Below are positions 6,100-55,006 of a stretch of 64,000 nucleotides of DNA, one piece after another (within the stretch, counting starts at the first letter, position 1; the number at the start of each line of letters is the position of its first letter). The notes under the pieces were generated by a model. The model saw nothing but the letters and a program-made list of their open reading frames with translations, made no database searches and was not told where the DNA came from. A program made the translations under genes and the position numbers. Source of the DNA: Candidatus Parcubacteria bacterium (GTDB lineage Bacteria > Patescibacteriota > Patescibacteriia > UBA1558 > GWA2-36-10). The stretch lies in the NCBI GenBank assembly GCA_018669975.1, contig JABHSK010000007.1, positions 128,390 to 192,389 of the forward strand, given 5' to 3'.

Positions 6100-6870
6100 A
6101 TGACACAAATTACATTACCAGGCAAAGTTTCTATCAAAGACCAAAAAGATAATCGCTACCAAGTGATTATTGAGCCATTTTATCCTGGTTTCGGGGTAAC
6201 TGTAGGCAATTCTTTGAGGAGAGCTTTATTGTCATCACTAGGTGGTGCTGCTGTTACTTCTTTCAAGATTGACGGTGCACAGCATGAATTCGATTCTATT
6301 GATTTCATGAAGGAGGATTTAGTAGAGGTTATGCTAAATTTAAAGAAATTAAGAGTAAAATCATTTTCAGAAGAGCCAGTTAAATTAATGGTTGATGTTA
6401 AAGGTGCAAAAGTTGTGACTGCAGCTGATATTACTAAAAATTCTGATGTAGAAGTTATCAATAAAGATATGGTCATTGCTACTTTAACAGATAAAACTGC
6501 TAAATTATCAATGGAAATTATAGTTGAGCAAGGCATCGGTTATGTGACAGTGGAACAAAGAGACGATAAAGAGAAGTTAGATATCGGTAATGTTGCTATT
6601 GACGCTAGTTTTTCACCAGTTTTGAATGTTGGTTATAATATAGAGAGTGTTCGTGTTGGTGAAATGACCAACTATGAAAAGCTTACTATGGACATTTTAA
6701 CTGATGGAAGTATTGATGCTAAAGAAGCTATCAGTCAGGCAGCTAAAATATTGGAAGAACATTTTAATTTCTTGATTGACTCAGGAGACAAAAAAGAAAC
6801 CAAGAAAAAAACCACAAAGAAAGAAGCTGCTGAAGAAGAAAAAGAGGAAATCGAAGAAGATAAAGAATAA
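6100..6870 (+). CDS. rpoA: DNA-directed RNA polymerase alpha subunit, N-terminal domain only, with a Lys/Glu-rich tail and no alpha-CTD
   Basis: alpha-NTD motifs ...GNSLRRALLSS.... The 256-aa product ends in KKETKKKTTKKEAAEEEKEEIEEDKE instead of the roughly 80-aa CTD. Confidence 0.85.
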   Translation: MTQITLPGKVSIKDQKDNRYQVIIEPFYPGFGVTVGNSLRRALLSSLGGAAVTSFKIDGAQHEFDSIDFMKEDLVEVMLNLKKLRVKSFSEEPVKLMVDVKGAKVVTAADITKNSDVEVINKDMVIATLTDKTAKLSMEIIVEQGIGYVTVEQRDDKEKLDIGNVAIDASFSPVLNVGYNIESVRVGEMTNYEKLTMDILTDGSIDAKEAISQAAKILEEHFNFLIDSGDKKETKKKTTKKEAAEEEKEEIEEDKE

Positions 6871-15964: not shown

Positions 15965-16396
15965 CTAGGAGGTGGAACTTGTTGTCCGTTGTTTGCGTCT
16001 AGCAAAGAGCTTGCGGAGCAGCCAAATGACCACGATCAGTACCAAGACGAATTTGGCTAGTGCCCAGAGATCCCAGATGAATCGCATGCTAAAGAGATAG
16101 CCGAAGAATGATTTGATTTTGGGGATAGGATCCACAAAGCCATGGTTCTTCTGGTAGACTTCATCTGGAGTCATAAAGGTTAGTGAGTCAACGGGCACTT
16201 CGCGCGTATCTTCGAAGTAGCGGAATTGTCCGTTGTCGCTCTGCGTCCAACGCAGCACTTTCCAGTATTTGGATCCTTGAGCGTTAGTTCGTTCGATGCA
16301 GGGGACTTCACGATAAGTAATGATCTTGGCCATACAGCTGGAGCTGATGGCCAGCAGCGTTAGGACTGCGACCAGTATCAGGGCCAGCTTTTTCAT
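15965..16396 (-). CDS. Hypothetical exported/membrane-anchored protein (signal peptide, about 80-aa domain, C-terminal TM, basic tail). GC-rich cassette gene.
   Basis: 143-aa ORF, N-terminal MKKLALILVAVLTLLAISSSC. About 50% GC against an about 33% backbone. Second gene of a two-gene unit. Confidence 0.55.
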   Translation of the reverse strand: MKKLALILVAVLTLLAISSSCMAKIITYREVPCIERTNAQGSKYWKVLRWTQSDNGQFRYFEDTREVPVDSLTFMTPDEVYQKNHGFVDPIPKIKSFFGYLFSMRFIWDLWALAKFVLVLIVVIWLLRKLFARRKQRTTSSTS

Positions 16397-16398
16397 AT

Positions 16399-16587
16399 TC
16401 AGTCTCCTTTTGGGTGTTGGATAGTTACCTTTCCGGTCAGCGTCATGCTGACAAAAGGACCAAACAGCTCGTTACTCACGCAATTGACGCAAGCGCCAAT
16501 AACACGCTTGAATTGATAGAGGTATATAGTGCTGAGGGTCAGTACAAGCAGCAGTAAGGGGAGTGCGATTTTCAGTGTGAGTTCCAT
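16399..16587 (-). CDS. Hypothetical single-TM small protein (62 aa from the SD-preceded Met). GC-rich cassette gene.
   Basis: The ORF track begins at 16611, but AAAGGAG lies 6 nt before the second ATG (MELTLK...). Three-nt gap to the downstream gene. Confidence 0.5.
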   Translation of the reverse strand: MELTLKIALPLLLLVLTLSTIYLYQFKRVIGACVNCVSNELFGPFVSMTLTGKVTIQHPKGD

Positions 16588-16629
16588 GAGTACTCCTTTG
16601 TTAATGTTCATTGCACTGTTGTAGTGCTA

Positions 16630-16684
16630 ATTGACTATTTGGAAGTCAATATATAATTATAGCATATTTTATGCATTTTGTCAA
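16630..16684 (-). promoter_or_regulatory. Consensus promoter (TTGACA-N17-TATAAT) plus operator-like inverted repeat ATTGACT-N7-AGTCAAT for cassette 16587..15965
   Basis: Minus-strand read: ttgacaaaatgcataaaatatgctataat tatatattgacttccaaatagtcaat. Confidence 0.6.
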
Positions 16685-16707
16685 TATTCTTAGGTTTTAA
16701 GATAAAA

Positions 16708-16735
16708 AAACTCCTCGTTAGCATAACAAGGAGTA
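16708..16735 (-). terminator. Terminator of 16753..16995
   Basis: Imperfect hairpin actcctcgtt/aacaaggagt with a T-run on the minus strand. Confidence 0.5.
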
Positions 16736-16752
16736 ATAGCCATTAAACGGGC

Positions 16753-16995
16753 TTATTTTGTCTGTTTAGGCCTTTTCCTGAAGATCAGGTAAAAGGTTCC
16801 CAGGCCAGCTAGGATAAAGCCCATGCCAGGCAAAATAACGTTTAGGCGGCCAGTGAAATAGCCAAGAACTATGCAGAGGATTACCCAACTAATGATGACC
16901 CAAGGTATGTCTTTTGGTTTGATTTTTATATAAATCATAACCAGACCTTTCGCTGAAGAAAATAGAAAAAACAAGTGAACAGTAGTTTTTAACAT
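16753..16995 (-). CDS. Hypothetical small membrane protein (2 TM)
   Basis: 80-aa hydrophobic ORF with backbone-like composition. Confidence 0.4.
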   Translation of the reverse strand: MLKTTVHLFFLFSSAKGLVMIYIKIKPKDIPWVIISWVILCIVLGYFTGRLNVILPGMGFILAGLGTFYLIFRKRPKQTK

Positions 16996-23274: not shown

Positions 23275-24231
23275 ATGGTAAATACTAAAAAAAGACAGAC
23301 CCTCCCCCTTCTTGATGAGTTTTTGGAAAACATCCAATCTAATAACTACTCTGCTGAGACGGTCTATAACTACGAAAGAGATCTAAATACTTTTGAAAAT
23401 TTTTTGACAGACGATATTAAAACACCGTTTAGCAAAATCACTAAGAGATCAATCATCAAGTTTAAGGCCTACCTCTCCTCTACTTCCAGGCAGACAGCCT
23501 CCAATGAGTCTGGTCAGAGTCAACTATCAAGTTATAGTATCAACCGCATCCTATCAGCTCTGCGTTCTTATTTAAGGTTTTTAGTAGAGATTGATCAAAA
23601 AGTACCTGTGCCTGCTGATGCTGTTAAACTTCTTAAAACAGAGAAAAAGTATGGACAGGTACCAGAGATGTCTGAATTAATAAAATTGATTGAGGCGCCA
23701 ACCCAGTTTGAGAATGATCCGACTATCAAGTTGCGTAATCGAGCTATGCTGGAGACTTTGTTCGCTACTGGTATGCGTATTTCTGAATTATTATCACTGA
23801 AACGTGAGCAACTAGATAAAACTGGTCGTATCTATGTTATGGGTAAGGGCAAAAAACAACGTTTTGTCTATCTAACACCTCGGGCTATTAAACATCTTAA
23901 GGATTATTTATCAGCTCGTCATGATGATACTCCCTACTTATTTATCCCTTATCGTGGTCGCAATAATCAGCAAAAAAATAAGAAAATATCGACCAATTAT
24001 TTACAATATAAGATAAAGCGCTATCGGGAGCTTTTATCTATTAATATACCGATATCAGCCCATTCTATTCGGCATAGCTTTGCTACTTATTTAGCAGAAA
24101 ATGGTGCTAACCCGGCTGCTATTCAAATATTACTAGGACATGAGTCGCTGGATACTACGACGCGTTATGTGCACGCTTCAGACCGTTATGCTGAAAGGAT
24201 GCACACTAAGTTTCATCCTCTTAAAAAATAA
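23275..24231 (+). CDS. Tyrosine recombinase, XerC/XerD family
   Basis: Catalytic R (ATGMRISEL), HSIRHSFAT (H-x-x-R), TTTRYVH (Tyr). Abuts a GC-rich island. Confidence 0.8.
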   Translation: MVNTKKRQTLPLLDEFLENIQSNNYSAETVYNYERDLNTFENFLTDDIKTPFSKITKRSIIKFKAYLSSTSRQTASNESGQSQLSSYSINRILSALRSYLRFLVEIDQKVPVPADAVKLLKTEKKYGQVPEMSELIKLIEAPTQFENDPTIKLRNRAMLETLFATGMRISELLSLKREQLDKTGRIYVMGKGKKQRFVYLTPRAIKHLKDYLSARHDDTPYLFIPYRGRNNQQKNKKISTNYLQYKIKRYRELLSINIPISAHSIRHSFATYLAENGANPAAIQILLGHESLDTTTRYVHASDRYAERMHTKFHPLKK

Positions 24232-24245
24232 TATAAAAAAAGAAA

Positions 24246-24271
24246 AACCCTGTACCAGCTGGTACAGGGTT
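24246..24271. terminator. Bidirectional terminator between the xer-like gene and minus-strand gene 24281..25087
   Basis: aaccctgtacc-agct-ggtacagggtt perfect palindrome flanked by A-runs and T-runs. Confidence 0.75.
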
Positions 24272-24280
24272 GATATTTAT

Positions 24281-25087
24281 TTAGGCAATACTGACATTGG
24301 CATTGTCGGTAAAAATCTTACTTTGGGCTTCGGGGCTACTAGGCCAGTTTCGAATAACTTCGTCGATCAGGCTCATGGCAGTCAGGAAGTCACAGTGGAC
24401 AGATTGGATACCGAAGCGGTAGCCTTTCTTGTCACCGTCTTCACCAATGAAAGTGATAGACTCTTCTAGTCCCTCACGTGCACCTTCGACTTTGACCAAA
24501 GTAAACACGATTCTGCCGGCGGAGACCAGGCTACGCATTGCGACATTGCCGAATTGGCCACTCATACCACACTTGTCCGAAGCATCGATGACTTTCAGTA
24601 GTCCGTTTTCATAGACCTGGCGTAGGAAACAATCCCAGGCCTTACTCAGGACAGTCGTCTCGGCGAAGAAATATGATTCAATATTGTGGCGGACATTGGC
24701 GCCCATGCTTCGATATTCCATATCACGCTCAATGGCACTCTCTATTAGGCGTGCCAAGGTGCTGATAGTTAGGGCTTTTTCGACAGCCTGAAATTGGACA
24801 TCCAGCAGATCGACGACTTCATCGTTACCGCGTTCGATTGCTTCCAGGTAGTCTTGGCGGCACTTGGCCACTACTGAGTGGTCATCGTGTCGGAAGAGTT
24901 CCCAGGCATCAGCTAGGATGCGAGGTAGATAGTGAGAGATGCCACAGTGTTTAAAAGTGGTTTCGTCGGCTACTCTTTCGTCGAGATACCAGCGTAGGAA
25001 AAACACAAGATGTTTTTCACCGCGGGTCTGGAAATCTCCAGCATGCAGATAGCCTGATAGGGCTCGAGTGAGTTCGTTTTTTTGCAA
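24281..25087 (-). CDS. Hypothetical 268-aa cytoplasmic protein, GC-rich orphan with a TTG start preceded by GGAGG
   Basis: Long ORF at about 50% GC with its own promoter, SD and terminator. No family recognised by eye. Confidence 0.55.
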   Translation of the reverse strand: MQKNELTRALSGYLHAGDFQTRGEKHLVFFLRWYLDERVADETTFKHCGISHYLPRILADAWELFRHDDHSVVAKCRQDYLEAIERGNDEVVDLLDVQFQAVEKALTISTLARLIESAIERDMEYRSMGANVRHNIESYFFAETTVLSKAWDCFLRQVYENGLLKVIDASDKCGMSGQFGNVAMRSLVSAGRIVFTLVKVEGAREGLEESITFIGEDGDKKGYRFGIQSVHCDFLTAMSLIDEVIRNWPSSPEAQSKIFTDNANVSIA

Positions 25088-25147
25088 GGTATTACCTCCA
25101 GTTAAAGTACATAGTTGAAGCCAAATATATAGCTCGAATGACAGTTA

Positions 25148-25215
25148 TTTTTACTATGAATATCATTTTTTGTCAATAATTGACATGTTTTGTTGGTATA
25201 TGTTAAGATACATTT
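25148..25215. promoter_or_regulatory. Divergent promoter region built on palindrome TGTCAAT-A-ATTGACA (two overlapping -35 TTGACA hexamers, one per strand)
   Basis: 25171..25185 seen directly. Plus-strand TTGACA-N17-TTAAGA(T). Minus-strand TTGACA-N17-TAAAAA(T) leads to the TTG-start gene. Confidence 0.5.
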
Positions 25216-25224
25216 AGCTTTTTT

Positions 25225-25480
25225 AGAACCTTAATTATACAACAACATGATGGCTGTAGAAGGGAAGGCCAGTATCTTGGAGACGCTCGGAATGGGTACC
25301 CAAAAGGAAGGCCTACGTGGCCCAATTAACCCTAAGGGATTCCGAGCTGTTTTAGGCAAATGTGCCTACCAACTATGTCCTAGATACCCCCTGATACAGC
25401 CACCTATTACCCCCTACCGAACCATTGAGATTTTTCCGCATAACGCTAAAAAGCCTCAATCTCGGTAGGGGGCTTTTTTT
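25225..25480 (+). ncRNA. Candidate structured ncRNA (about 250 nt) ending in a long GC-rich terminator hairpin. Weak resemblance to 23S rRNA domain III segments.
   Basis: GC-rich, stop-interrupted except for a weak 73-aa ORF with no SD. Internal pairings ggaaggcc...ggaaggcc. Terminator cccctaccga...tcggtagggg followed by ttttttt. Confidence 0.35.
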
Positions 25481-25723
25481 ATTAACATTTGACAAGATTT
25501 TGTTTATATATTAAGTTGAAAGTAGAAGGTATATAGAAAACTGAATAAAAGTTGTAAATCAATACAAATTACAAATCGCCAAAAACAAAAATATCTGGTA
25601 CTTTGACAATCCAGATTGATGATAGATAGCGTTTTAGCCTGTATTGATTTTTTGTTTCCTGTCACCCCACCACACCCAAATTTCCGACATGGTGTCGGAA
25701 TACAACCAGAAAGGTGGTTCATC

Positions 25724-26149
25724 ATGAAGAACGGGAGGAATAACCATAAGACACACAGACGTGTGAGGTATTACTTGTATTGGCTGTGTTTCGCTTGGAT
25801 GGTCGCTCAAATGGCGCTCATCCTCTGGAAATTCTTTGGATTTCCGCCCCCTATCATCATTCCGCCGAGTTTCCCGGTGTATTATTTTGTAGTCCTAGTC
25901 GTCTATTCGGTCGTCAGGGCGAGCGCTCGTTGGGCGCACAAGGTATTACCGCGAAAGAAGGGTGGAACCTTTGTGTATCTGTGGGGCATTTTTGCACTAC
26001 TGATTCACATCATTGCTGCGTTTGGTAACGGGCGCTTCGAAATTCCCAGAGTCACGTTTGACAACTTGTTGTTTGTCTCCATTGTTTACGTGGCATCTAG
26101 GATTGAAAAGCGTTTATTTCTAAATATACGCAATGGCTCTAAACATTAA
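25724..26149 (+). CDS. Hypothetical small membrane protein (141 aa from the SD-preceded Met; 3-4 TM, Pro-rich loop)
   Basis: GAAAGGTGG SD 6 nt before the ATG at 25724, in frame with the longer ORF-track call. Perfect 8-bp hairpin ttccgaca-tgg-tgtcggaa immediately upstream of the SD. Confidence 0.5.
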   Translation: MKNGRNNHKTHRRVRYYLYWLCFAWMVAQMALILWKFFGFPPPIIIPPSFPVYYFVVLVVYSVVRASARWAHKVLPRKKGGTFVYLWGIFALLIHIIAAFGNGRFEIPRVTFDNLLFVSIVYVASRIEKRLFLNIRNGSKH

Positions 26150-36826: not shown

Positions 36827-37672
36827 ATGCGTCGTATTTTTTTGCATGATAACCTGGACATCGATGCTGTTGCTAGTGCTTGGGCAGCAGAACGTTTTAT
36901 CCCTGGTTTCAAGGATGCTACCTTTGCTTTTCGTCCGGCTGACTATGATGGCCACGAAATGGATGAGGGTGATATCGCTGTCGATATGACAATTGGTATC
37001 AAGGGTAAGCTTGACGATGATGGCACGCAGCACTCCTCTTTCGCTAGCATCATTGCCCAGTATGCCCCGCTTGAGGATCAGGCTGCTTTGCATCCCCTGG
37101 TCACCTTCATCGATGCGCAGGACAGTTATGGTTCTGCTATCAAGCACATGGTGCCCGATATCGATGATGATGCTCTGAATATTCTTTCCACTGTCACAGT
37201 TAGCTCGGTTCTCCGGGCTTTGCAGAATACCAACCAGAGAAACGATCGCTCCGTGCTTTATAAGATGCTGATGATTTTTGATGGCCTGTTTGGCTGTGGT
37301 AAGGCTCGGCAGGAAGCTGAGAAAGAGGCCGATCAGGCTGAGCTTTTGGCCGATGGTCAGGTAGCTATCGTCGACAATTCTCGGCGTTATGCCACCAACA
37401 GTATTCTTTTCAACCGCGGTGTGCGTGCGATCATCTACATTGATGATTACAATCTGGGAGTTGTTCGTAGCAGCGAAGAAGCTTTCCGGGCTGATGATCC
37501 CCGTATTTGTGCGGTAGTTGAGGCTGCTGGTGAGTTCGATGAGTGGTTTGCCCACTCTGCTGGTTTCCTGTTCTGCCGTGGTAGTCGTAAGTCTCGACAG
37601 ACTTCTCCTTCTCAGGTCAATCCTCGTGATTTGGCCCAGGCTTTGGTAGATGTTGTTTCTACTGCTGCCTAA
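36827..37672 (+). CDS. Hypothetical acidic 281-aa protein, GC-rich cassette. N-terminus weakly resembles DHH phosphoesterase motif I.
   Basis: AAGGAG SD 8 nt before the ATG; terminator follows. FLHDNLDIDAVASAWAA resembles H-x-N-P-D-x-D-A-x-G-S, but no DHH triad is seen. Confidence 0.5.
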   Translation: MRRIFLHDNLDIDAVASAWAAERFIPGFKDATFAFRPADYDGHEMDEGDIAVDMTIGIKGKLDDDGTQHSSFASIIAQYAPLEDQAALHPLVTFIDAQDSYGSAIKHMVPDIDDDALNILSTVTVSSVLRALQNTNQRNDRSVLYKMLMIFDGLFGCGKARQEAEKEADQAELLADGQVAIVDNSRRYATNSILFNRGVRAIIYIDDYNLGVVRSSEEAFRADDPRICAVVEAAGEFDEWFAHSAGFLFCRGSRKSRQTSPSQVNPRDLAQALVDVVSTAA

Positions 37673-37682
37673 AGTAAGTATG

Positions 37683-37711
37683 CCGGGAGCGCGTAGCGTT
37701 CCCGGTTTTTT
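37683..37711 (+). terminator. Terminator of 36827..37672
   Basis: ccggga-gcgcgtagcgt-tcccgg followed by tttttt. Confidence 0.65.
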
Positions 37712-37805
37712 ATTGGCTAATATTGACAAAAATAGTTATTTTGGTTAAATTTATCTATTATTTAGCACCTTAAAATCATCTATTTTCTCTAAAAAGGAGA
37801 CTTTG

Positions 37806-37871
37806 ATGTTTAGCTATATTATCTATGAGTCAGTTACGGATAACTCAAGACTGGAGGGAAGGTCATGTTAA
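37806..37871 (+). CDS. Putative 21-aa leader peptide (MFSYIIYESVTDNSRLEGRSC), translationally coupled to 37865..38185
   Basis: AAAAAGGAG SD 8 nt upstream. Its stop (TGT TAA) overlaps the downstream start in the sequence tcATGTTAA. It carries GGAGGGAAGG, which can serve as the SD for the next gene. Confidence 0.35.
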   Translation: MFSYIIYESVTDNSRLEGRSC

Positions 37872-38185
37872 AAATCGTTAAGCATCACAATGTCAGTGAT
37901 CCCGGTGGTAAAGAAGGACCACACCCGCACTACGGTAAATTTATTTGCACCATCACCGAGGCAGCTGAGCATAATTTGATTGCTCTTTTTATTGAGCAGG
38001 TATGGAATCAGGTTGGTGATGAAACTGTATCTGTTAGTATGAATATAACTGACGATGAAACGATTTTCTGGGTTAATGCCAATACCCCTGAAAAGGTAAT
38101 TCAGGTCATCGACACAGTGACTGATGGCATGATAAAGCCCCGCTTCAAGAACGAAGGTTTTACTGTGGAAGTAGAAGAAAAATAA
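37865..38185 (+). CDS. Hypothetical 106-aa protein, GC-rich cassette
   Basis: ORF coupled to the leader peptide. Terminator acaggg-cttc-ccctgt follows at 38186..38207. Confidence 0.45.
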   Translation: MLKIVKHHNVSDPGGKEGPHPHYGKFICTITEAAEHNLIALFIEQVWNQVGDETVSVSMNITDDETIFWVNANTPEKVIQVIDTVTDGMIKPRFKNEGFTVEVEEK

Positions 38186-48932: not shown

Positions 48933-50678
48933 TTACTCTAAAATAGCCTTGATGCGGCGTATTCCGGCAGAGCTTGATTGTTCTTTTTTTATTTTAAAAT
49001 GACCTAATTCGGCGGTGCTTTTTACGTGTGGACCACCACAAATTTCTTGGGAAAATTTTCCAACTTTATATACCTTGACCATTTCGCCATATTTTTTATC
49101 AAATAGGCCGATAGCGCCCTGCTCTTTAGCTTGGGCAACTGACATTTCTTCACATAGCACTGGTAAATCAAGTTCGATTTGTTGGTTAACTATCTCCTCT
49201 ACTTTAGTTTTTTCTTCGTCAGTCATCTTTTCTGGATGGGTAAAGTCAAAGCGCAGCCGTTGCTCGTTTATGTTGCTACCTTTTTGTTGGACATGATCAC
49301 CGAGGACATCACGCAAAGCTTGATGTAGGAGATGGGTAGCCGTATGAAACTTCTTTGCCATCTCACCATCGTCAGCTAGGCCGCCCTTAAACTTTCCAGC
49401 TGAGGCGGTGCGGGATAATTCCTGGTGTTTATTAAAAGCTTCTTCATATTTTTTTTTGTCCAATTTGATTCCTTTTTCTTCAGCCATTTCCAAAGTCATT
49501 TCTATAGGGAATCCGTAAGTAGTAAATAATATAAAAGCTGCTTCTTCGTTTAGCGCGTCTTGAGAAATAAATTTTTCAAATTCTTTCAAGCCTTTGCTGA
49601 GTGTTTTTGAAAACTTACTTTCTTCTTGATTTAGTTGTTCTAAAATGAATTCTTCGTTATCAAATAGTTCTTTATAGTCAGTTTGATAATTTTTGATAAC
49701 CACTTTAGCTAATTTGGTAGTAAATTTATTTTCTATACCTAATTGTTTAGCAAAACGGATAGCTCGACGAATCAAACGGCGCAGAACATAGCCCTGATCT
49801 TTATTGCCAGGGGCAATATTACAGGGATCACCGAGTATAAAAACAGCACTACGGATGTGATCAGCTACAATTCGGAATGATTTTTTATCATCAGCGTATT
49901 TTTTTTCAGATAAGTCCTCTATTTTCTGAATAATTGGCAAGAACAAATCAGTCATGTAGTTATCATCCATACTATTGAGTACAGCTAGGGTGCGTTCTAG
50001 GCCCATGCCAGTATCAACATTTTTTTGTTCTAGTGGTATAAATTTTCCGTCAGCAGTTTTATTATATTCCATTAGAACATTATTCCAGATTTCTACCCAG
50101 CCTTCATCGTCTTCATTGAATTTGGCTGGTGCCTCACCTTCGCCAGTCCAATAGAAAACCTCTGTATCAGGACCACAGGGACCGGTTTCTCCAGCTGGAC
50201 CCCACCAATTATCTTTTACTTTGCAAATTTTTTCTTGGGGAATGCCCAGATCCAACCAGAATTCTTCTGATTCTTGGTCATACTCGGGCACGTCATCGTT
50301 GCCAGCAAAGATGGAGATGCCTAGTTTATTTTTATTTAATTTAAGGATGCCTACCAAAAATTCCAAAGAAAATTTAATGGTATCTTCTTTGAAGTAGTCA
50401 CCTAAAGACCAATTTCCCAGCATTTCAAAAAAGGTATGATGAGTGGTATCACCAATTTCATCGATATCATCAGTACGCATGCATTTTTGAAAATTGGCTA
50501 GACGCTTACCTTCTGGGTGTTTTTCGCCCATTAAATAAGGTACTAGTGGTTGCATGCCAGCAGTTATAAACAAAACACTTGGGTCATTTTCTGGTATCAA
50601 CGAGGCAGAACCAATAATAGCGTGTTTTTTAGCCTTGAAATACTGAAAAAAGTTGTTTTTTAAGTCTTTTGAGGTCAT
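48933..50678 (-). CDS. alaS: Alanyl-tRNA synthetase, compact form (581 aa; catalytic plus shortened editing region, no C-Ala domain)
   Basis: ...FTSAGM-type core (FITAGMQPLVPY), HTATHLLHQAL and CGGPHV editing-site motifs. Ends about 290 aa short of canonical AlaRS. Confidence 0.8.
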   Translation of the reverse strand: MTSKDLKNNFFQYFKAKKHAIIGSASLIPENDPSVLFITAGMQPLVPYLMGEKHPEGKRLANFQKCMRTDDIDEIGDTTHHTFFEMLGNWSLGDYFKEDTIKFSLEFLVGILKLNKNKLGISIFAGNDDVPEYDQESEEFWLDLGIPQEKICKVKDNWWGPAGETGPCGPDTEVFYWTGEGEAPAKFNEDDEGWVEIWNNVLMEYNKTADGKFIPLEQKNVDTGMGLERTLAVLNSMDDNYMTDLFLPIIQKIEDLSEKKYADDKKSFRIVADHIRSAVFILGDPCNIAPGNKDQGYVLRRLIRRAIRFAKQLGIENKFTTKLAKVVIKNYQTDYKELFDNEEFILEQLNQEESKFSKTLSKGLKEFEKFISQDALNEEAAFILFTTYGFPIEMTLEMAEEKGIKLDKKKYEEAFNKHQELSRTASAGKFKGGLADDGEMAKKFHTATHLLHQALRDVLGDHVQQKGSNINEQRLRFDFTHPEKMTDEEKTKVEEIVNQQIELDLPVLCEEMSVAQAKEQGAIGLFDKKYGEMVKVYKVGKFSQEICGGPHVKSTAELGHFKIKKEQSSSAGIRRIKAILE

Positions 50679-50796: not shown

Positions 50797-50996
50797 AAAA
50801 AAAGACCCTGCCGAGCAGATGGAGGGTCACACGAAACTCTCGCTATATTTCGTGGACACTATATCCATGCTCGGCAGGGTGATGGGCCGGGGTTGGTTAG
50901 GCATCAGCACTACTTGCGTTAAATAAAACAATTGTAGTTCCTTACATATCAAGGAGAGTCGCTGCTGATTATTGCCAACCCCGTTCAAAGATCAAC
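50797..50996 (-). ncRNA. Structured about 200-nt RNA upstream of alaS: own promoter, nested helices, and a long intrinsic terminator (candidate leader or riboregulator)
   Basis: Promoter TTGACA-N17-TACAAT at 51031..51003. Helices GGGGUUGG/CCAACCCC and AUCAGCA/UGCUGAU. Terminator ACCCUGCCGAGCA...UGCUCGGCAGGGU followed by CUUUUUUU. Confidence 0.4.
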
Positions 50997-51045
50997 CTAT
51001 GTATTGTAAAAAATAATTTTTTGTTTGTCAATTAAAATTTAAGAA

Positions 51046-51215
51046 AAAAAAGATCCTACCGAAGTAGGATCGTGGGAAAATTGAGCTGCCGTCGAAGACT
51101 AGTGGTTGTGTAAATTCTGGTTCCGTCCAGAAAAAGTGTTTGCCCATTTTCTACAGGACCATGCTAGATAATCAACAGCAGCCCTTAATGAGCTACTGAA
51201 TCTACCATAGCGAAA
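51046..51215 (-). ncRNA. Candidate about 150-nt sRNA: promoter TTGACA-N17-TATGGT, terminator GAUCCUAC-UUCG-GUAGGAUC plus a U-run
   Basis: Minus-strand read: ccttgacaaatatctaatatttcgctatggt ... gatcctacttcggtaggatctttttttt. No SD-led ORF. Confidence 0.4.
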
Positions 51216-51569: not shown

Positions 51570-51626
51570 ATTTTTTATTTAGTAGTTAATATTGATATTA
51601 TACATTATTTTATATAAATAAAATAC

Positions 51627-51655
51627 TTGACAGTATGCTATGCTTGTATTATAAA
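51627..51655 (+). promoter_or_regulatory. Promoter TTGACA-N17-TATAAA for the HD-domain gene
   Basis: tacttgacagtatgctatgcttgtattataaa; AAAGGAGG SD at 51687. Confidence 0.5.
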
Positions 51656-51700
51656 GTAATGTAAAATATTGAACTTTCCATTTAACAAAGGAGGCTAGAA

Positions 51701-52321
51701 ATGCAAGAAACACCCAAAGTTTCTGGTGCAGCTAGATTTGCTGCTCGCTTTAAGGAGTATTTACCCGAAGATAAGCGTTGGTTCCTCAAAAAGGCCTACC
51801 AGTTGTCCAAAGATGCTCATCGTCCCGTCACTCGCAAAGACGGATTAACCCGTTATTTTGAGCACTGTCGCGGTGCTTGTGAGATTGCTATTGGTGAGCT
51901 TGGCATCAAGGATAATTGGCGGCTTTTGGTCGCTATTCTGATGCACGATGGTCCTGAGGACACATGGTTGATTGATTTTCGTTTGATCGAGCGTGTCTTT
52001 GATAAGACTGTTCGTCTGTGGGTCGAATATGTGACCAAAACCGAAGTCAATAAAGACACCTATGTCCGAGACATACTCAACTGTGGTATTCCCGAAGTAT
52101 TGATCATTAAGCTTTGTGATCGTTTGCATAATCTGCGTACTCTGGGCACCACCCCTGAGAAATTCCAGGTCCGTCAGGCTCTAGAAACTCGTGATGAGTA
52201 TTTGGTAATTGCTGAAAAGCTTATCGAAATATTACCAGCTGACCTCAGATGGCGTGGTGTATATTTGCGCGACAACATCGAGGCTGTTTGTAAGTCTTAC
52301 GAAACAGAGTTTGGTATCTAG
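51701..52321 (+). CDS. Small alarmone hydrolase: stand-alone RelA/SpoT-type HD domain, (p)ppGpp/(p)ppApp pyrophosphohydrolase-like
   Basis: RYFEHCRGACEIA, ILMHDGPEDT (HD), IKLCDRLHNLRTL match the SpoT/Mesh1 hydrolase motifs. 206 aa, no synthetase domain. Confidence 0.8.
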   Translation: MQETPKVSGAARFAARFKEYLPEDKRWFLKKAYQLSKDAHRPVTRKDGLTRYFEHCRGACEIAIGELGIKDNWRLLVAILMHDGPEDTWLIDFRLIERVFDKTVRLWVEYVTKTEVNKDTYVRDILNCGIPEVLIIKLCDRLHNLRTLGTTPEKFQVRQALETRDEYLVIAEKLIEILPADLRWRGVYLRDNIEAVCKSYETEFGI

Positions 52322-52328
52322 TCTATCG

Positions 52329-52358
52329 CCTACCCATATTTTATGGGTAGGTTTTTTA
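52329..52358 (+). terminator. Terminator after the SAH gene
   Basis: cctaccca-tattttta-tgggtagg followed by tttttt. Confidence 0.7.
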
Positions 52359-52447
52359 TATTGACAGCTTTTTTATTTATACATAAGATAAATAGGTATT
52401 GATGTTCGTACCATATAGGCTGTAGTCAAAAACCCAAGGAGGGAATT

Positions 52448-52729
52448 ATGTTAGTATTAGCAGAGAAGGAACTATCTTTTTGGGAAGGAGTGAACACATT
52501 CATTGCCAGGCTGAAATTGGCTGGAAAATCAGATGGGTATGTAATGAGGCAGTTAATGCTTCAAGCTACGGGAAAAACTCAAGGATTGTGCCAAGAGGCG
52601 CAAGAATTGCCGTCATTCGGAGAAAATAAACAAACCTGGTCAGATTTACATCGAGTTGCTAATCATCACAAGCAGGAGTTCCGATGGACAGACGGAGTTT
52701 TTTTGACCCTGGTCAACGCTATTTCTTGA
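52448..52729 (+). CDS. Hypothetical 93-aa protein, cassette gene
   Basis: Promoter TTGACA-N17-TAAGAT at 52361..52389, AAGGAGG SD, terminator ggcgc...gcgcc plus T-run. Confidence 0.45.
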   Translation: MLVLAEKELSFWEGVNTFIARLKLAGKSDGYVMRQLMLQATGKTQGLCQEAQELPSFGENKQTWSDLHRVANHHKQEFRWTDGVFLTLVNAIS

Positions 52730-52796
52730 CAGCCTATAAGGGCGCTTTGTATAAAGAGGCGCCTTTTTTATTTGACTAAATTTAAGAGATATAGTA

Positions 52797-53065
52797 ATTT
52801 ACCTTCAGATTGAACATTTCAACTTGGTGCTCGAAAGAACGGCTGTCTAAGCGTGTGAAAGACCACGTGTAGGGATGTAAAGGTTCGAAGCCTAACAGCT
52901 GGGTGGCGATTGACGTCTTTATCTGTAGGATAGGTGGGAGACATCGAAGCGCTGACGCGAGTCAGAGTGGAGTCATCCTTGAAATACCACTGTTTTAGAC
53001 CTCTCTTTCAAAGCCTTTTCGAGCGCCATCTTTTACGGGTCCTGTCATTTGACAGGACTTTTTAT
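52797..53065 (+). ncRNA. 23S rRNA-like fragment (L1-stalk H76-H78 region homolog) as a stand-alone about 270-nt transcription unit
   Basis: UGUAGGAUAGGUGGGAG...(about 45 nt)...CCUUGAAAUACCAC with the same spacing as E. coli 23S around positions 2110-2180; upstream GGCUGUCU...GUGAAAGACC. Own promoter TTGACT-N17-TAATTT at 52762..52790 and terminator gtcctgtca-tt-tgacaggac plus a T-run. Confidence 0.5.
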
Positions 53066-53078
53066 TTTGATTTAGTAA

Positions 53079-53107
53079 TTGACAAATTATAGAAAAAATG
53101 TTATTTT
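53079..53107 (+). promoter_or_regulatory. Promoter TTGACA-N17-TATTTT for 53158
   Basis: taattgacaaattatagaaaaaatgttatttt. Confidence 0.4.
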
Positions 53108-53157
53108 AGCTAGATTTCGAACTTTGTAAACAATTACTCAAACAAGGAGAAAAAGTA

Positions 53158-53415
53158 ATGAGCCAAGATAGGACTGCTGGAGATTTGATTTTTGAAACCA
53201 TAACAGCTATGGGACAAGAAGAACAGGAACATTGTATTCATTGCAATGAAAAATGGTATTCAATTCACTATCGTGATGGTGTCTGTCATAGTTGTCAGCA
53301 AAAAAATCTTCCTGGTAGGACTGAATTAGCTCGTCGTAGTCGTCACATACGAATCATGTATGGTCTGGGCATTGCTGCCCTGTTGTTTTTGATTGGTAGA
53401 GCAATTTTTGGATAG
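53158..53415 (+). CDS. Zinc-ribbon protein with a C-terminal TM helix (85 aa)
   Basis: CIHC-x13-CHSC plus hydrophobic tail GLGIAALLFLIG. AAGGAG SD. Confidence 0.5.
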   Translation: MSQDRTAGDLIFETITAMGQEEQEHCIHCNEKWYSIHYRDGVCHSCQQKNLPGRTELARRSRHIRIMYGLGIAALLFLIGRAIFG

Positions 53416-53478
53416 TAAAAACCATTAATGTTAAGAGTTTAGAGCTCGAGTAGTTCTTTTCTCTGGAAAGGCAAGTTC

Positions 53479-53670
53479 ATGGCTAAGCTTAAAGTTAAAA
53501 TTTTTAGCGGCAGACGTTCTTCTGTTGAAGGTAAAATCAACGCTTATTTAGCTGGTGGTACAGTCGATAAAATTATCGACACCAAATTGACACCACTCAA
53601 TCCAGGGGCAGAGAGTGATATCAATAATCCTAGTGTTATAGCTATGCTGACCTTCACAGTTAAAGATTAG
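53479..53670 (+). CDS. Hypothetical 63-aa protein
   Basis: Weak SD (ggaaagg). Perfect terminator cagccattc-tcatg-aatggctg plus ttttttt at 53679..53710. Confidence 0.4.
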   Translation: MAKLKVKIFSGRRSSVEGKINAYLAGGTVDKIIDTKLTPLNPGAESDINNPSVIAMLTFTVKD

Positions 53671-53947
53671 TATTTGCTACAGCCATTCTCATGAATGGCT
53701 GTTTTTTTTATTAAAAAAGACCACGTCATTATAACGTGGTCGGAGAATTTTTCAGCTTTTTTAGACTTGCTGTTTTCTCCTTTGGAGAATTGCTTGGTAG
53801 GCAGGGATTTGTTGGAAAGGGATTTTGTGGCTGGAAGCCACTACATTTCGAATGATACTTATGATACGAGGTTGGCGATTTGGTTGAGGTCTACGACGAA
53901 ACAGAGTTGAGTTGCGGGGGTGCTTTTTGCACATATAGCCTCCTCTG

Positions 53948-54163
53948 CTAGTTGAGCTTGTGATAATCTTCGGGAGTCCTGTCCCACTCTGGGACAAAAA
54001 TCCAGAGCAGAATGTAGGCGCCTGCGCCTATTCCGTAGATCCAAATCAGGCAAAACCATAGCATGCGAACAATCCAGGTAGGAATTTTCATCCAATAAGC
54101 AAGGCCGGCACAAACACCGCCGAGCCAATTTTCGTTGGTCATGCGTCGAAATTTACTAGTCAT
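53948..54163 (-). CDS. PspC-domain mini-protein (71 aa)
   Basis: LGGVCAGLAYWMKIPTWIVRMLWFCLIWIYGIGAGAYILLWIFVPE matches the PspC domain. AAAGGAG SD. Minus-strand promoter TTGACA-N17-TATACT at 54239..54211. Confidence 0.75.
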   Translation of the reverse strand: MTSKFRRMTNENWLGGVCAGLAYWMKIPTWIVRMLWFCLIWIYGIGAGAYILLWIFVPEWDRTPEDYHKLN

Positions 54164-54279
54164 AATATTCTCCTTTTGTTGGTGTTTTGAAGGTTCTACA
54201 GAGGATAAAAAGTATAAAATATATAGTATGTTTTGTCAAAGCCAATAAAAAAGCCCCACTACTGTGGAGCTCGATAGAT

Positions 54280-54852
54280 TTATGTTTCCAAAAAAGAAGT
54301 TACTGGTAGCACTAAGGCACCCTTTTTTTCGTACCAAGGGATACTGTTGTCGCTACTGTGACCAGATTGACCAGAAATAACATCGTTGCTGATGATAATT
54401 TGATAATCTCTCCTAAGTGCGCCATTCGCAGTTCTTTTGACGCAGCAGTCTGCATTGATACCCATCAAGAATAAGGTGCTAATGTTCAGGGATCGGAGAT
54501 GTTGGTCTAGGTTTGTTTTTTTGAAGCCATTATCATATCCTTTAATGATAGTTTTGTATTGTTGAATATCACCCAGCTCTACCCTTATTTCTTTTATCGT
54601 TTCTCCATAACCTTTAAACTCTAAAACTATAATAGGGATATTATTTTCTCGACAGTGCCTAAGTACAGCAATTTGATTAGGTACGATACGGCCTTTATCA
54701 CCGCTTTTGAGGTTTCCCACAAAACCTTTTTGCATATCGATAAGAACAACAGCTAATCCTGCTTGTTTTAATTCTTGGAGCATTTCCGTAGATAACGGCG
54801 GAATTGGTTTGAAGCGTCTTTTGAGGCGACGCCATCCAAAGCGGAAATTCAT
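54280..54852 (-). CDS. Isochorismatase-family cysteine hydrolase
   Basis: AVVLIDMQKGF and LFLMGINADCCVKRTA (catalytic Cys region). Confidence 0.7.
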   Translation of the reverse strand: MNFRFGWRRLKRRFKPIPPLSTEMLQELKQAGLAVVLIDMQKGFVGNLKSGDKGRIVPNQIAVLRHCRENNIPIIVLEFKGYGETIKEIRVELGDIQQYKTIIKGYDNGFKKTNLDQHLRSLNISTLFLMGINADCCVKRTANGALRRDYQIIISNDVISGQSGHSSDNSIPWYEKKGALVLPVTSFLET

Positions 54853-55006
54853 GTTGGGTCCTTTCCTTTTTTGGTGTTTTTAAAGAACTAAATTTTTTAC
54901 GGACGATGGATTAATATAGAATACATAGGCTAATTAGTCAATGTTTTAAATAAAAAAGACCCCTGAAACCAGGAATCTTTTATTTTTTTTATTATAAGTG
55001 TGTGTA

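What the first reader, a model, noticed from the sequence alone, without database searches (positions are those of the whole stretch)
51600..54900. Array of about seven independently transcribed, GC-elevated small genes (moron-like island) encoding an alarmone hydrolase, an rRNA-mimic RNA, a PspC mini-protein, an isochorismatase-like hydrolase and small orphans
This 3.3-kb stretch holds seven small units in a row, each with its own near-consensus TTGACA-N17-TATAAT promoter, a strong AAAGGAG Shine-Dalgarno site and a hairpin terminator. They run at roughly 40-50% GC against a roughly 33% backbone. The units are the SAH HD-domain gene, a 93-aa orphan, the 23S-like RNA, a zinc-ribbon TM protein, a 63-aa orphan, a PspC mini-protein and an isochorismatase-like hydrolase. 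The known families among them act on signalling or stress (an alarmone hydrolase, a membrane-stress domain, a small-molecule hydrolase). The remaining units are small orphans, so this could be an uncharacterised stress, anti-defence or symbiosis module rather than housekeeping.
Basis: partly seen in the sequence, partly recalled or inferred. Interest (0 to 1): 0.7.

Follow-up and report, generated by a model that had tools for sequence, protein, structure and literature searches.

The report
Small-gene locus with free-standing L1-stalk RNA
In a tiny-genome Parcubacteria (CPR) chromosome, a run of small, separately transcribed genes includes a conserved ~200-nt RNA gene that copies the ribosome's tRNA-ejecting "L1 stalk" and joins it to a tRNA-like hairpin; no such RNA family is in Rfam 15.

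Summary
The features exist at the stated coordinates, but the stretch holds six transcription units, not seven. They are SAH (HD_4), orf93, an RNA gene, an orf85-orf63 bicistron, a PspC-orf57 bicistron (orf57 was overlooked) and an isochorismatase-family hydrolase. GC3 is raised in SAH, orf93 and PspC, marginally in the hydrolase, and not in orf85 or orf63.

It is not a strain-specific moron island. SAH-orf93-RNA-(orf85)-orf63-PspC is syntenic in three related species, with gain or loss of single cassettes. The SAH sits beside alaS with the same GC3 excess in a genome whose AlaRS is only 69% identical. No integrase, repeat, phage or defence signal was found.

The notable element is the RNA (about 52808-53065). 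A 12-bp closing helix encloses a T-arm-like hairpin and a complete 23S L1 stalk (H76-78; Rfam LSU 54.9 bits). It is 97% identical between species whose flanking genes are about 77% identical. It shows compensatory changes, and it recurs with its own promoter and terminator in an unrelated Patescibacteria locus.

My best reading is a stable trans-acting RNA that binds uL1 and/or tRNA elbows off the ribosome. That function is inferred, not shown.

The parts
51628..51656 (+). Promoter of the SAH unit (TTGACA-17-TATAAA)
   Evidence: Read from the sequence. An AAGGAGG SD lies just before the ATG at 51701.
51701..52321 (+). Small alarmone hydrolase (SAH): single RelA/SpoT HD domain, 206 aa
   Evidence: Pfam HD_4 at 40.8 bits against a cut-off of 27.2. 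NCBIfam SpoT/RelA matches cover the N-terminal hydrolase part only. The PDB alignment to the T. thermophilus Rel hydrolase domain keeps HD..ED and DRLHNLRT. Substitutions are dominated by third codon positions (27/18/79). GC3 is 0.44.
52328..52352 (+). Intrinsic terminator of SAH
   Evidence: 11-bp stem followed by a T-run.
52361..52389 (+). Promoter of orf93 (TTGACA-17-TAAGAT)
52448..52729 (+). orf93: genus-restricted helical protein whose C-terminus resembles one HEAT-like repeat
   Evidence: Only 3 clusters in 5.8 billion proteins. A profile search hits repeats of HEAT-repeat proteins at residues 54-88. Codon-position substitutions are 13/9/31. The AF2 model has pLDDT 64 and gave no fold match.
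52738..52766 (+). Terminator of orf93
52772..52800 (+). Promoter of the RNA gene (TTGACT-17-TAATTT; TATAGTAATTT is identical in species B (L072/L073) and TAGTAATTT is shared with species C (L078))
   Evidence: Sequence and alignments.
52826..53027 (+). Core of the L1-stalk/T-arm ncRNA. P1 closing helix 52826-52837 with 53016-53027. P2 52841-52845 with 52896-52900. P3 hairpin 52847-52872. T-arm-like hairpin 52881-52893 (AGG-UUCGAAG-CCU). L1 stalk H76-78 at 52915-53000.
   Evidence: Rfam LSU match. Fold z = -3.1. 97% identity to species B. Homologues in L078 and L076. CM R1 scores of 134-176 bits. 9 pairs changed on both sides; 86.6% of cells paired against 25-51% in slid controls. Helix tables.
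53037..53060 (+). Terminator of the RNA gene
   Evidence: 10-bp stem plus T-run. Conserved with changes in L072 and L078.
53079..53107 (+). Promoter of the orf85-orf63 unit (TTGACA-17-TATTTT with an upstream TG)
   Evidence: In L072 the same promoter and SD drive orf63 directly because orf85 is absent.
53158..53415 (+). orf85: two CxxC pairs (zinc-ribbon-like) plus a C-terminal hydrophobic, TM-like segment
   Evidence: Sequence read. 70% identical in L078 with substitutions 19/13/48. Absent in species B.
53479..53670 (+). orf63: small orphan protein, co-transcribed with orf85
   Evidence: No promoter in 53416-53478. Orthologues in L078 and L072. AF2 pLDDT 72 and no fold match.
53679..53702 (+). 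Terminator of orf85-orf63
53719..53741 (-). Terminator of the PspC-orf57 unit
53761..53934 (-). orf57: overlooked, very basic 57-aa protein downstream of PspC (SD GAGGAGG)
   Evidence: Called as a gene on L004 and L092. 65% identical in L078 with substitutions 9/11/25.
53948..54163 (-). PspC-domain mini-protein, 71 aa
   Evidence: Pfam PspC at 62.2 bits against a cut-off of 25. GC3 is 0.56. 73% identical in L078.
54211..54239 (-). Promoter of PspC-orf57 (TTGACA-17-TATACT, 11/12)
54251..54272 (-). Terminator of the hydrolase gene
54280..54852 (-). Isochorismatase-family cysteine hydrolase, 190 aa
   Evidence: Pfam Isochorismatase at 84.4 bits. The PDB alignment keeps the D..C motif (GINADCCV). 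Seen only in the window's own species among the relatives examined.
54913..54941 (-). Promoter of the hydrolase gene (TTGACT-17-TATATT)

Best explanation
The stretch is a chromosomal small-gene locus of a Parcubacteria (CPR) genus. It lies between alaS-hpf-secA and a copper-ATPase operon.

It consists of six short sigma-70-type transcription units that are inherited vertically but gained, lost or swapped one cassette at a time.

Its centrepiece is a stable non-coding RNA of about 200-260 nt. A 12-bp helix formed by the 5' and 3' ends encloses two arms:
- a small domain carrying a tRNA T-arm-like hairpin (GG-UUCGAAK-CC);
- a complete, rRNA-derived L1 stalk (23S helices 76-78). Every position shown in upper case (most conserved) in the Rfam LSU consensus line is matched.

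Inferred mechanism: off the ribosome, this RNA folds like the ribosomal L1 stalk. It therefore binds ribosomal protein uL1 and/or docks the elbow of (deacylated) tRNA. In that role it would act as a trans-acting decoy or buffer linked to translation state.

The neighbouring genes are separate cassettes with no shown functional coupling to the RNA:
- SAH, which would degrade (p)ppGpp-type alarmones or tRNA 3'-pyrophosphate;
- the PspC-orf57 membrane pair;
- the cysteine hydrolase.
For: **Shown**
- Domain identities.
- Promoters and terminators bracket each unit.
- All seven ORFs evolve with third-position-dominated substitutions.
- Core synteny holds in three species, with single-cassette indels.
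- The backbone is housekeeping chromosome: murG, murC, murB, rpsM, rpsK, rpsD, rpoA, rplQ, rplM, rpsI, alaS, secA and hpf.

**The RNA**
- Rfam LSU 2128-2213 at 54.9 bits, with all upper-case consensus residues matched.
- Only the stalk part resembles true 23S genes (79-84% identity). The flanks do not.
- 6 differences in 202 nt against species B, where 79 of 206 SAH third codon positions differ.
- Compensatory changes occur in H78, H76, the T-arm, P1 and P2.
- The same architecture, with its own promoter and terminator, lies between comF and tRNA-Ser genes in an unrelated Patescibacteria contig.
- The MFE fold predicts the closing helix.

**Inferred**
- uL1 and tRNA-elbow binding is inferred from established knowledge that H76-78 forms the uL1 site and the E-site tRNA elbow dock (PMC3664808 and PMC9297842, listed).
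Against: - No expression, binding or phenotype data exist.
- Only four distinct RNA sequences are known: three congeneric species and one distant lineage. Covariation statistics are therefore thin.
- The genome's own 23S rRNA and rplA could not be examined, so a ribosomal (in-trans) role cannot be excluded.
- A simple uL1 regulator would not need the strictly conserved tRNA-contacting loops or the T-arm.
- Nothing links the cassettes functionally. In more distant CPR genomes the SAH occurs without the RNA.
Confidence: 0.5

Rival explanations
1. Recently acquired 'moron-like' island. The units were imported horizontally from a higher-GC donor, for example by a phage or mobile element, and form a strain-specific accessory module.
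For: - GC3 is raised in SAH, orf93 and PspC.
- Each unit has its own promoter and terminator.
- Cassette-level differences exist between relatives, and the right-hand flank is fully different in species C.
- The SAH has weak PHROG hits to generic HD phosphohydrolases.
Against: - The core order is conserved in three species.
- An SAH in the same position keeps the GC3 excess (0.51 against 0.17-0.27) in a genome with 69% AlaRS identity. Amelioration should have erased a foreign signature over that distance.
- No integrase, tRNA gene, direct repeats or attC-like sites were found.
- There are no PADLOC hits and no phage-function PHROG hits.
- orf85 and orf63 have backbone composition.
Confidence: 0.15
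2. Split ribosome. In this lineage the 23S rRNA gene lacks all or part of the L1 stalk, and this RNA supplies the stalk (with uL1) to the 50S subunit in trans.
For: - Loss of 23S helix 78 and/or uL1 is documented in several CPR groups, including some Parcubacteria (PMC9297842).
- Constraint on the RNA is very strong and includes the tRNA-contacting loops, as expected for a working stalk.
- The family is found in two separate Patescibacteria lineages.
Against: - The RNA is closed on itself by P1 and shows no segment resembling H75 or H79 that could pair with 23S. Only window 52909-52990 matches true 23S.
- The genome uses strong SD sites. [quoted passage not shown] That is inference.
- Its own 23S was not available.
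Confidence: 0.08
3. tRNA-repair or anti-toxin module. The SAH removes 3'-pyrophosphate from tRNA, or degrades (pp)pApp, and the adjacent RNA recruits or presents tRNA through elbow docking. Together they would counter toxSAS-type attack.
For: - Some SAHs reverse tRNA CCA pyrophosphorylation (preprint 10.1101/2021.04.30.441581).
- The RNA retains the elbow-docking loops.
- SAH and the RNA are 0.5 kb apart in three species.
Against: - No toxSAS or other toxin gene is nearby.
- SAH and RNA are separate transcripts, with orf93 between them.
- The RNA occurs without an SAH in L076, and SAH occurs without the RNA in L009 and L089-L091.
Confidence: 0.08
4. Cis-regulatory leader. The RNA is a uL1- or tRNA-sensing attenuator, like a ribosomal-protein leader or T-box, that controls the downstream gene through its terminator.
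For: - The RNA ends in an intrinsic terminator directly upstream of orf85.
- L1-stalk-like platforms are used by T-box leaders (PMC3664808).
Against: - A conserved TTGACA promoter follows the terminator.
- The downstream gene differs: orf85 in the window and L078, orf63 in L072, tRNA-Ser in L076.
- I saw no obvious specifier loop, T-box sequence or alternative antiterminator pairing (by eye). No Rfam leader or T-box hit was found.
- It is not near rplKA.
Confidence: 0.05
5. Decaying 23S rRNA pseudogene fragment with no function.
For: The only database similarity is to 23S rRNA.
Against: - 97% identity where neutral sites have diverged by about 38%.
- Compensatory substitutions.
- Conserved promoter, closing helix and terminator.
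- A second, unlinked genomic context.
Confidence: 0.02

Closest known systems
L1 stalk of bacterial 23S rRNA (helices 76-78)
   Same: Sequence-level homology: Rfam LSU positions 2128-2213, 54.9 bits, and 79-84% identity to true 23S genes. The UGUAGGAUAGGUGGGAG and UUGAAAUACCAC segments are invariant apart from one G-to-A change in species B (GGAUAAGUGG). H78 and H76 covary as in rRNA.
   Different: It is not part of a 23S gene. It has its own promoter and terminator, a closing helix and an extra T-arm domain. Its flanks are unrelated to H75 or H79.
uL1-binding rRNA mimic in the rplK-rplA (L11 operon) mRNA leader
   Same: An RNA outside the ribosome that reproduces the uL1 binding site of 23S. 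This comparison rests on established knowledge of rRNA mimicry by ribosomal-protein leaders.
   Different: Known mimics are short cis elements in the regulated mRNA and copy only the H77/78 junction. This one is a full stalk, including the tRNA-contacting loops. It is a separate gene and is not next to rplKA in the window or in any held locus.
Interdigitated double T-loop platforms of T-box Stem I and RNase P (tRNA-elbow docks)
   Same: Extra-ribosomal RNAs that use an L1-stalk-like module to stack on the tRNA elbow (PMC3664808, PMC4810234).
   Different: Those share only the 3D motif, not sequence homology to 23S. No specifier loop, antiterminator or RNase P core is present here.
Bacterial Y RNA (YrlA) and other tRNA-like modular ncRNAs
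   Same: The 5' and 3' ends pair in a closing stem, and an internal module carries a canonical T-loop hairpin (GGUUCGAAUCC). This is my own knowledge of YrlA architecture and was not tested beyond Rfam.
   Different: No Rfam YrlA, tRNA or tmRNA hit. No rsr (Ro) gene was seen nearby. YrlA has no rRNA-derived domain.
Small alarmone hydrolases (Mesh1, PaSAH, ATfaRel-type RSH hydrolases)
   Same: A single HD_4 domain of about 200 aa with the HD..ED and DRLHN motifs. PDB sequence hits include MESH1 and Rel/SpoT hydrolase domains.
   Different: It is an orphan with no adjacent toxSAS or synthetase. The sequence is only 30-45% identical to other CPR SAHs. The substrate is unknown.
Prophage morons and genomic islets
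   Same: Short autonomous units with their own promoter and terminator and atypical GC.
   Different: There is no prophage or mobile context. The core is conserved within the genus, and the GC excess is ancient.

Membership tests
Small alarmone hydrolase (RSH, hydrolase-only) | HD_4 / RelA-SpoT hydrolase domain above the curated threshold | tested here: met
   PF13328 at 40.8 bits against a cut-off of 27.2.
Small alarmone hydrolase (RSH, hydrolase-only) | Single-domain protein lacking the synthetase, TGS and ACT domains | tested here: met
   206 aa. NCBIfam SpoT/RelA models match only their first ~175 positions. No other Pfam domain was found.
Small alarmone hydrolase (RSH, hydrolase-only) | Catalytic motifs (HD, ED, DRLHN) | tested here: met
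   The alignment to 6s2t_A keeps 'lmHDgpED' and 'cDRLHNLRTL'.
Small alarmone hydrolase (RSH, hydrolase-only) | Hydrolysis of (p)ppGpp, (pp)pApp or tRNA 3'-pyrophosphate | not testable with these tools
   Needs an enzyme assay.
PspC family | PspC domain above threshold | tested here: met
   PF04024 at 62.2 bits against a cut-off of 25, residues 4-59. It falls below the NCBIfam equivalog cut-off for PspC proper (40 against 104), so it is a domain-only mini-protein.
Isochorismatase-like cysteine hydrolase | Isochorismatase domain above threshold with the Asp and Cys motifs | tested here: met
   PF00857 at 84.4 bits. 'vvliDMq' and 'giNADCCV' align to 3eef_A. The catalytic Lys is inferred only. The match is below every NCBIfam equivalog cut-off, so the substrate is unknown.
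Bacterial 23S rRNA gene | Match to the LSU model across the molecule | tested here: not met
   Only model positions 2128-2213 of 2925 match. blastn to true 23S covers only window 52909-52990.
Ribosomal L1 stalk (H76-78) as a structural module | Conserved stalk sequence and helices, with covariation | tested here: met
   54.9 bits against a gathering score of 50. H78 has four pairs changed on both sides, and H77 is invariant.
uL1 autoregulatory mRNA leader | Located in the 5' UTR of rplK/rplA and controlling it in cis | tested here: not met
   Flanked by orf93 and orf85, or by comF and tRNA-Ser in L076. It has its own terminator followed by a new promoter.
uL1 autoregulatory mRNA leader | Binds uL1 | not testable with these tools
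   Needs EMSA or structure determination.
T-box riboswitch | Specifier loop, T-box antiterminator sequence, and a regulated aminoacyl-tRNA-related gene | tested here: not met
   No Rfam T-box hit at E up to 5. Downstream genes vary.
tRNA / tmRNA / tRNA-like (YrlA) | Detected by ARAGORN or by Rfam tRNA, tmRNA or YrlA models | tested here: not met
   ARAGORN found 0 genes in the window. No such Rfam hits were found. Only the T-loop hairpin is tRNA-like.
Prophage moron / genomic island | Mobile context: integrase, att repeats, tRNA target, phage genes | tested here: not met
   The nearest integrase-family gene is 27 kb away.
Prophage moron / genomic island | Presence or absence polymorphism among close relatives | tested here: inconclusive
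   The core is conserved in three species, but individual cassettes differ: orf85, a 133-aa ORF, orf116 plus an SDR, and the hydrolase.
Prophage moron / genomic island | Atypical composition due to recent import | tested here: not met
   The GC3 excess of SAH persists in L009 (0.51) and in species B and C (0.49-0.53).
Integron cassette array | Repeated attC-type recombination sites and an integron integrase | tested here: not met
   No repeat family beyond generic promoter and terminator strings.

The most novel reading that the evidence does not exclude
The RNA is a detached ribosomal module: a free-standing L1 stalk, with uL1, that works in trans. It could either be docked to 50S subunits whose 23S rRNA has lost helix 78 or the whole stalk, as reported for several CPR lineages. 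Or it could act as an off-ribosome E-site surrogate that captures deacylated tRNA. Either would be the first bacterial case of a ribosomal functional domain encoded as a separate, independently transcribed gene.
Probability: 0.1. Interest if true: 0.95.

Novelty: new variant of a known kind. Interest (0 to 1): 0.66.

Why it matters
CPR/Patescibacteria have unusually reduced ribosomes. Some lack uL1 or 23S helix 78, and how they handle E-site tRNA release is an open question (PMC9297842).

A strongly conserved, separately transcribed RNA carrying an intact L1 stalk plus a T-loop hairpin makes that question testable. Does it bind uL1? Does it bind tRNA? Does it associate with ribosomes?

It also adds a candidate RNA family absent from Rfam 15. 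It shows that rRNA mimicry can exist as a stand-alone gene rather than a cis leader.

For the island itself the lesson is cautionary. GC-rich, promoter-and-terminator-bounded small genes in an AT-rich genome need not be recent imports.

Tried and rejected
- **Rfam.** At gathering and at E up to 5, nothing but the LSU fragment was found over the island. For unclear reasons the LSU hit was not reported for L072, L076 or L078. My own covariance model was used instead.
- **ARAGORN.** No tRNA or tmRNA in the window.
- **More family members.**
  - The viral-contig pattern scan found none.
  - The metagenome pattern scan gave 3 true lineages and 1 chance hit, L079: tRNA-Pro followed by a 16-mer.
  - CM R1 found no further copies over the fetched loci searched. 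These were AlaRS-anchored CPR loci, comF-anchored relatives of L076 and SAH-anchored distant CPR contigs.
  - Extra species-C contigs carry an identical RNA.
- **Phage and plasmid blastn.** Only true 23S genes were hit.
- **Orphan proteins.**
  - orf93 has 3 clusters only, and a profile search found only a HEAT-like repeat resemblance.
  - AF2 models of orf93 and orf63 were low-confidence, and Foldseek against PDB gave nothing with E below 1.
  - PHROG and PADLOC gave nothing informative.
- **RNAalifold.** Run on a MAFFT alignment, it misaligned P1 of L078 and cannot model the stalk's non-canonical fold. I relied on the Rfam-guided structure and explicit pair counts.
- **Cassette-boundary repeats or attC sites.** None found.
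- **This genome's own 23S rRNA and rplA.** This is left as the key next step.

Full report
**Context**

The window is chromosomal DNA of a Patescibacteria/Parcubacteria (CPR) bacterium with about 34% GC. The backbone carries housekeeping genes.
- murG, murC, murB; rpsM, rpsK, rpsD, rpoA, rplQ, rplM, rpsI; an Asp/Lys/Asn-type class II aminoacyl-tRNA synthetase; secA, hpf and alaS.
- uL13 is only 115 aa, which fits Parcubacteria (PMC9297842).
- The closest species representative in GTDB has only 69% AlaRS identity (L009).
- Contigs of the same species are 100% identical over the region.

**Checking the observation**

- SAH is a single HD_4 domain that keeps HD..ED and DRLHNLRT.
- The 71-aa protein is a PspC domain.
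- The 190-aa protein is an isochorismatase-family cysteine hydrolase that keeps the Asp and Cys motifs.
- 52915-53000 is the only Rfam hit in 64 kb. It matches bacterial LSU rRNA model positions 2128-2213, which are helices 76-78, the L1 stalk (54.9 bits).

Reading promoters, SD sites and terminators gives six units, not seven:
1. SAH
2. orf93
3. the RNA
4. orf85-orf63. No promoter precedes orf63. In L078 orf85, orf116 and orf63 are packed as an operon. In L072 orf85 is missing and its promoter and SD drive orf63.
5. PspC plus an overlooked 57-aa basic ORF, on the minus strand
6. the hydrolase, on the minus strand

Terminator-like hairpins are about three times the shuffle expectation (20 against 7.3). 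Promoter matches of at least 10/12 are about 3.5 times denser here than elsewhere in the window. At the laxer 9/12 cut-off they are not above chance.

Per-gene composition:
- Backbone GC3 is about 0.27.
- SAH is 0.44, orf93 0.40, PspC 0.56 and the hydrolase 0.35.
- orf85 (0.27) and orf63 (0.31) are ordinary.

Similar GC-rich, promoter-bounded small-gene patches occur at about 16 kb, 24-26 kb and 37-38 kb. The phenomenon is therefore not unique to this stretch.

**Are the small ORFs real?**

Orthologues in related contigs differ mainly at third codon positions. The counts below are differences at positions 1/2/3.

| Gene | Differences (pos 1/2/3) |
|---|---|
| SAH | 27/18/79 |
| orf93 | 13/9/31 |
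| orf85 | 19/13/48 |
| orf63 | 17/18/31 |
| orf57 | 9/11/25 |
| PspC | 18/10/24 |

All are protein-coding genes under purifying selection.
- orf93 is confined to three clusters among 5.8 billion proteins. Its C-terminus resembles one HEAT-like repeat.
- AF2 models of orf93 and orf63 were weak, and fold searches were empty.
- orf85 has two CxxC pairs (zinc-ribbon-like) and a hydrophobic C-terminal segment, read from the sequence.
- None hits PADLOC. Only generic HD or unknown-function PHROGs appear.

**Is it a recently acquired, strain-specific island?**

No.
- A 559,896-bp contig and several short contigs of a species whose SAH is 83% identical carry alaS - orf110 - SAH - orf93 - (450-nt gap) - orf85 - orf116 - orf63 - SDR - orf57 homologue - PspC. 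orf63 and the orf57 homologue are seen in the short contigs (L078, L092). The gene calls for the 559,896-bp contig, for which no DNA was available, do not list them.
- A third species (SAH 84% identical) has SAH - orf93 - an extra 133-aa ORF - RNA - orf63.
- The core is thus genus-level conserved, and single cassettes come and go.
- To the right of PspC the content is swapped wholesale up to the conserved copper ATPase. The window has hydrolase, orf116, a GH100/GDE-like gene and a ROK-family gene. Species C has TSP_3, DUF2339, MFS and a pilin.
- In L009 only an SAH homologue (38% identical) remains, in the same divergent position next to alaS. It has GC3 of 0.51 against 0.17-0.27 for its neighbours.
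- The SAH of species B and C likewise has GC3 of 0.49-0.53.
- A compositional excess that survives this much divergence is a maintained property of these genes, not a sign of fresh import.
- No integrase, tRNA, direct repeats or attC-like sites flank the units.

**The RNA**

Architecture, from the sequence:

| Element | Coordinates / sequence |
|---|---|
| Promoter | 52772-52800, TTGACT-17-TAATTT |
| P1 closing helix | 52826-52837 (GGUGCUCGAAAG) with 53016-53027 |
| P2 (5 bp) | 52841-52845 with 52896-52900 |
| P3 (variable hairpin) | 52847-52872 |
| T-arm-like hairpin | 52881-52893, AGG-UUCGAAG-CCU (the canonical T-loop heptamer) |
| Linker | short, between P2 and the stalk |
| L1 stalk, H76-H77-H78 | 52915-53000 |
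| Terminator | 53037-53060 |

Only window 52909-52990 resembles true 23S genes (79-84% identity). The rest does not.

Conservation:
- Against species B the 202-nt P1-to-P1 core has 6 differences (97% identity).
- The flanking genes are about 77-80% identical, and 79 of 206 SAH third codon positions differ.

A degenerate pattern (T-loop hairpin, 17-47 nt, then the stalk 16-mer) scanned over 241 million metagenome records returned four hits:
- the window's own species;
- species C (L078);
- one chance hit (L079);
- a distant Patescibacteria contig, L076. There the same architecture lies between comF and two tRNA-Ser genes. It has a closing helix, P2, a hairpin, GGG-UUCGAAU-CCC, the stalk and an extra 3' hairpin domain, with its own TTGACC promoter and terminator.

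Across the four distinct sequences, UGUAGGAUAGGUGGGAGAC, GGAGUC and UUGAAAUACCAC are invariant, apart from one G-to-A change in species B (GGAUAAGUGG). The helices covary:
- H78 has four pairs changed on both sides.
- H76, the T-stem (A-U to G-C), P1 (A-U to G-C) and P2 also covary.
- Formal count: 9 of 28 pairs changed on both sides; 86.6% of cells paired against 25-51% when partners are slid; 0 of 500 shuffles reach the observed covariation score.

A covariance model (R1) scores the four at 134-176 bits and finds nothing else in about 1.2 Mb of held CPR loci.

This is therefore a real, independently transcribed, structurally constrained ncRNA gene. It is not a pseudogene fragment. It is not a cis leader either, because the downstream gene differs among lineages and a conserved promoter follows the terminator.

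**Mechanism**

What is shown:
- The RNA contains an intact copy of the ribosomal module that binds uL1 and stacks on the tRNA elbow.
- It also contains a T-loop hairpin.
- Both are under strong constraint.

What is inferred:
- The RNA forms an off-ribosome RNP with uL1 and/or docks tRNA elbows, or its own T-arm in cis.
- It acts as a decoy or buffer tied to translation status.
- A plain uL1 autoregulator would not need the tRNA-contacting loops, so tRNA or a tRNA-like ligand is probably involved.

The neighbourhood has a translation and stress flavour: hpf, alaS, SAH, and two further structured sRNA candidates. But the RNA occurs without SAH (L076) and SAH occurs without the RNA (L009, L089-L091). 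Functional coupling is unproven.

The most novel admissible reading starts from the fact that several CPR lineages have lost 23S helix 78 and/or uL1 (PMC9297842). On that reading this RNA is a stalk supplied in trans. I could not reach this genome's own 23S rRNA or rplA, so this stays at about 10%.

**Comparison with known systems**
- It works like, and is homologous to, the 23S L1 stalk, but it fails membership as an rRNA gene.
- It resembles uL1-binding mRNA leaders in mimicry, but it is a stand-alone gene, full-length and unlinked to rplKA.
- It shares the elbow-dock logic of T-box Stem I and RNase P, and the closing-stem-plus-T-arm layout of YrlA-type RNAs. It matches none of those Rfam models.
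- Literature searches for L1-stalk mimics or CPR structured RNAs found no description of such an RNA.

**Verdict**

The 'moron-like island' interpretation is not supported. The locus is a conserved but cassette-plastic small-gene neighbourhood.

Its value lies in the L1-stalk/T-arm RNA, a candidate new ncRNA family of the CPR.

Noticed in passing
window 50800-50997 (-): Candidate sRNA gene. It has a TTGACA-17-TACAAT promoter at 51031-51003, two long hairpins and a T-run terminator near 50807. The fold z-score is -6.7. It is conserved in species C (L071), with apparent compensatory changes in the AUCAGCA/UGCUGAU stem. No Rfam match.
   Followed up: partly
window 51044-51198 (-): Second candidate sRNA. 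A ~100-nt hairpin closed by GGGCUGCUG/CGGCAGCUC, plus a GAUCCUAC-UUCG-GUAGGAUC terminator. The fold z-score is -5.8. It is conserved in L071. No Rfam match; it is not recognisable as SRP, 6S or tmRNA.
   Followed up: partly
window 15965-16940 (-): Another GC-rich mini-cassette region (GC3 up to 0.61). A perfect TTGACA-17-TATAAT promoter lies at 16684-16656. It drives two small membrane or lipoprotein-like ORFs, and a further small TM ORF lies upstream. None has a Pfam match.
   Followed up: partly
window 23275-26149: An XerC/D-type tyrosine recombinase (23275-24231) is followed by GC-rich ORFs with no Pfam match (24281-25087 on the minus strand, 25616-26149 on the plus strand) and a cluster of TTGACA promoters at 25.1-26.5 kb. 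This may be an integrated element.
   Followed up: no
window 36827-38185: A GC-rich pair. One is a 281-aa protein with only a weak ChrB_C hit, overlapped by a long antisense ORF. The other is a 106-aa orphan. Each has a TTGACA-17 promoter.
   Followed up: no
L009 8421-9137 and 7901-8113: The SAH homologue next to alaS and an adjacent 70-aa ORF are both GC3-rich (0.51 and 0.45) in a genome with GC3 of 0.17-0.27. The GC excess of this locus is ancient and unexplained. It could reflect selection on codon use or mRNA structure, or repeated replacement.
   Followed up: partly
L072 1500-2009 and 2374: Species B has a 133-aa secreted or membrane ORF inserted between orf93 and the RNA. It also has a clean absence of orf85, so that orf85's promoter and SD are fused to orf63.
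   Followed up: partly
window 6100-6870: RpoA is only 256 aa and hits only the N-terminal and insert domains. No alpha-CTD family appears at E up to 1e-5.
   Followed up: no
window 48933-50678: AlaRS is 581 aa (catalytic core plus tRNA_SAD). To my knowledge typical bacterial AlaRS is about 870 aa. The same length is seen in all relatives fetched.
   Followed up: no
window 52808-52825 and 52973-52979: The RNA's 5' leader (AUUUCAA; GUUUCAA in L078) is complementary to the stalk's invariant UUGAAAU. This could be an alternative pairing or a coincidence. It is not conserved in L076.
   Followed up: no
L079 8300-8418: A genuine tRNA-Pro is followed 30 nt later by the exact 16-mer GTAGGATAGGTGGGAG, but no further stalk sequence. 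I judged it a chance match to the search pattern.
   Followed up: yes
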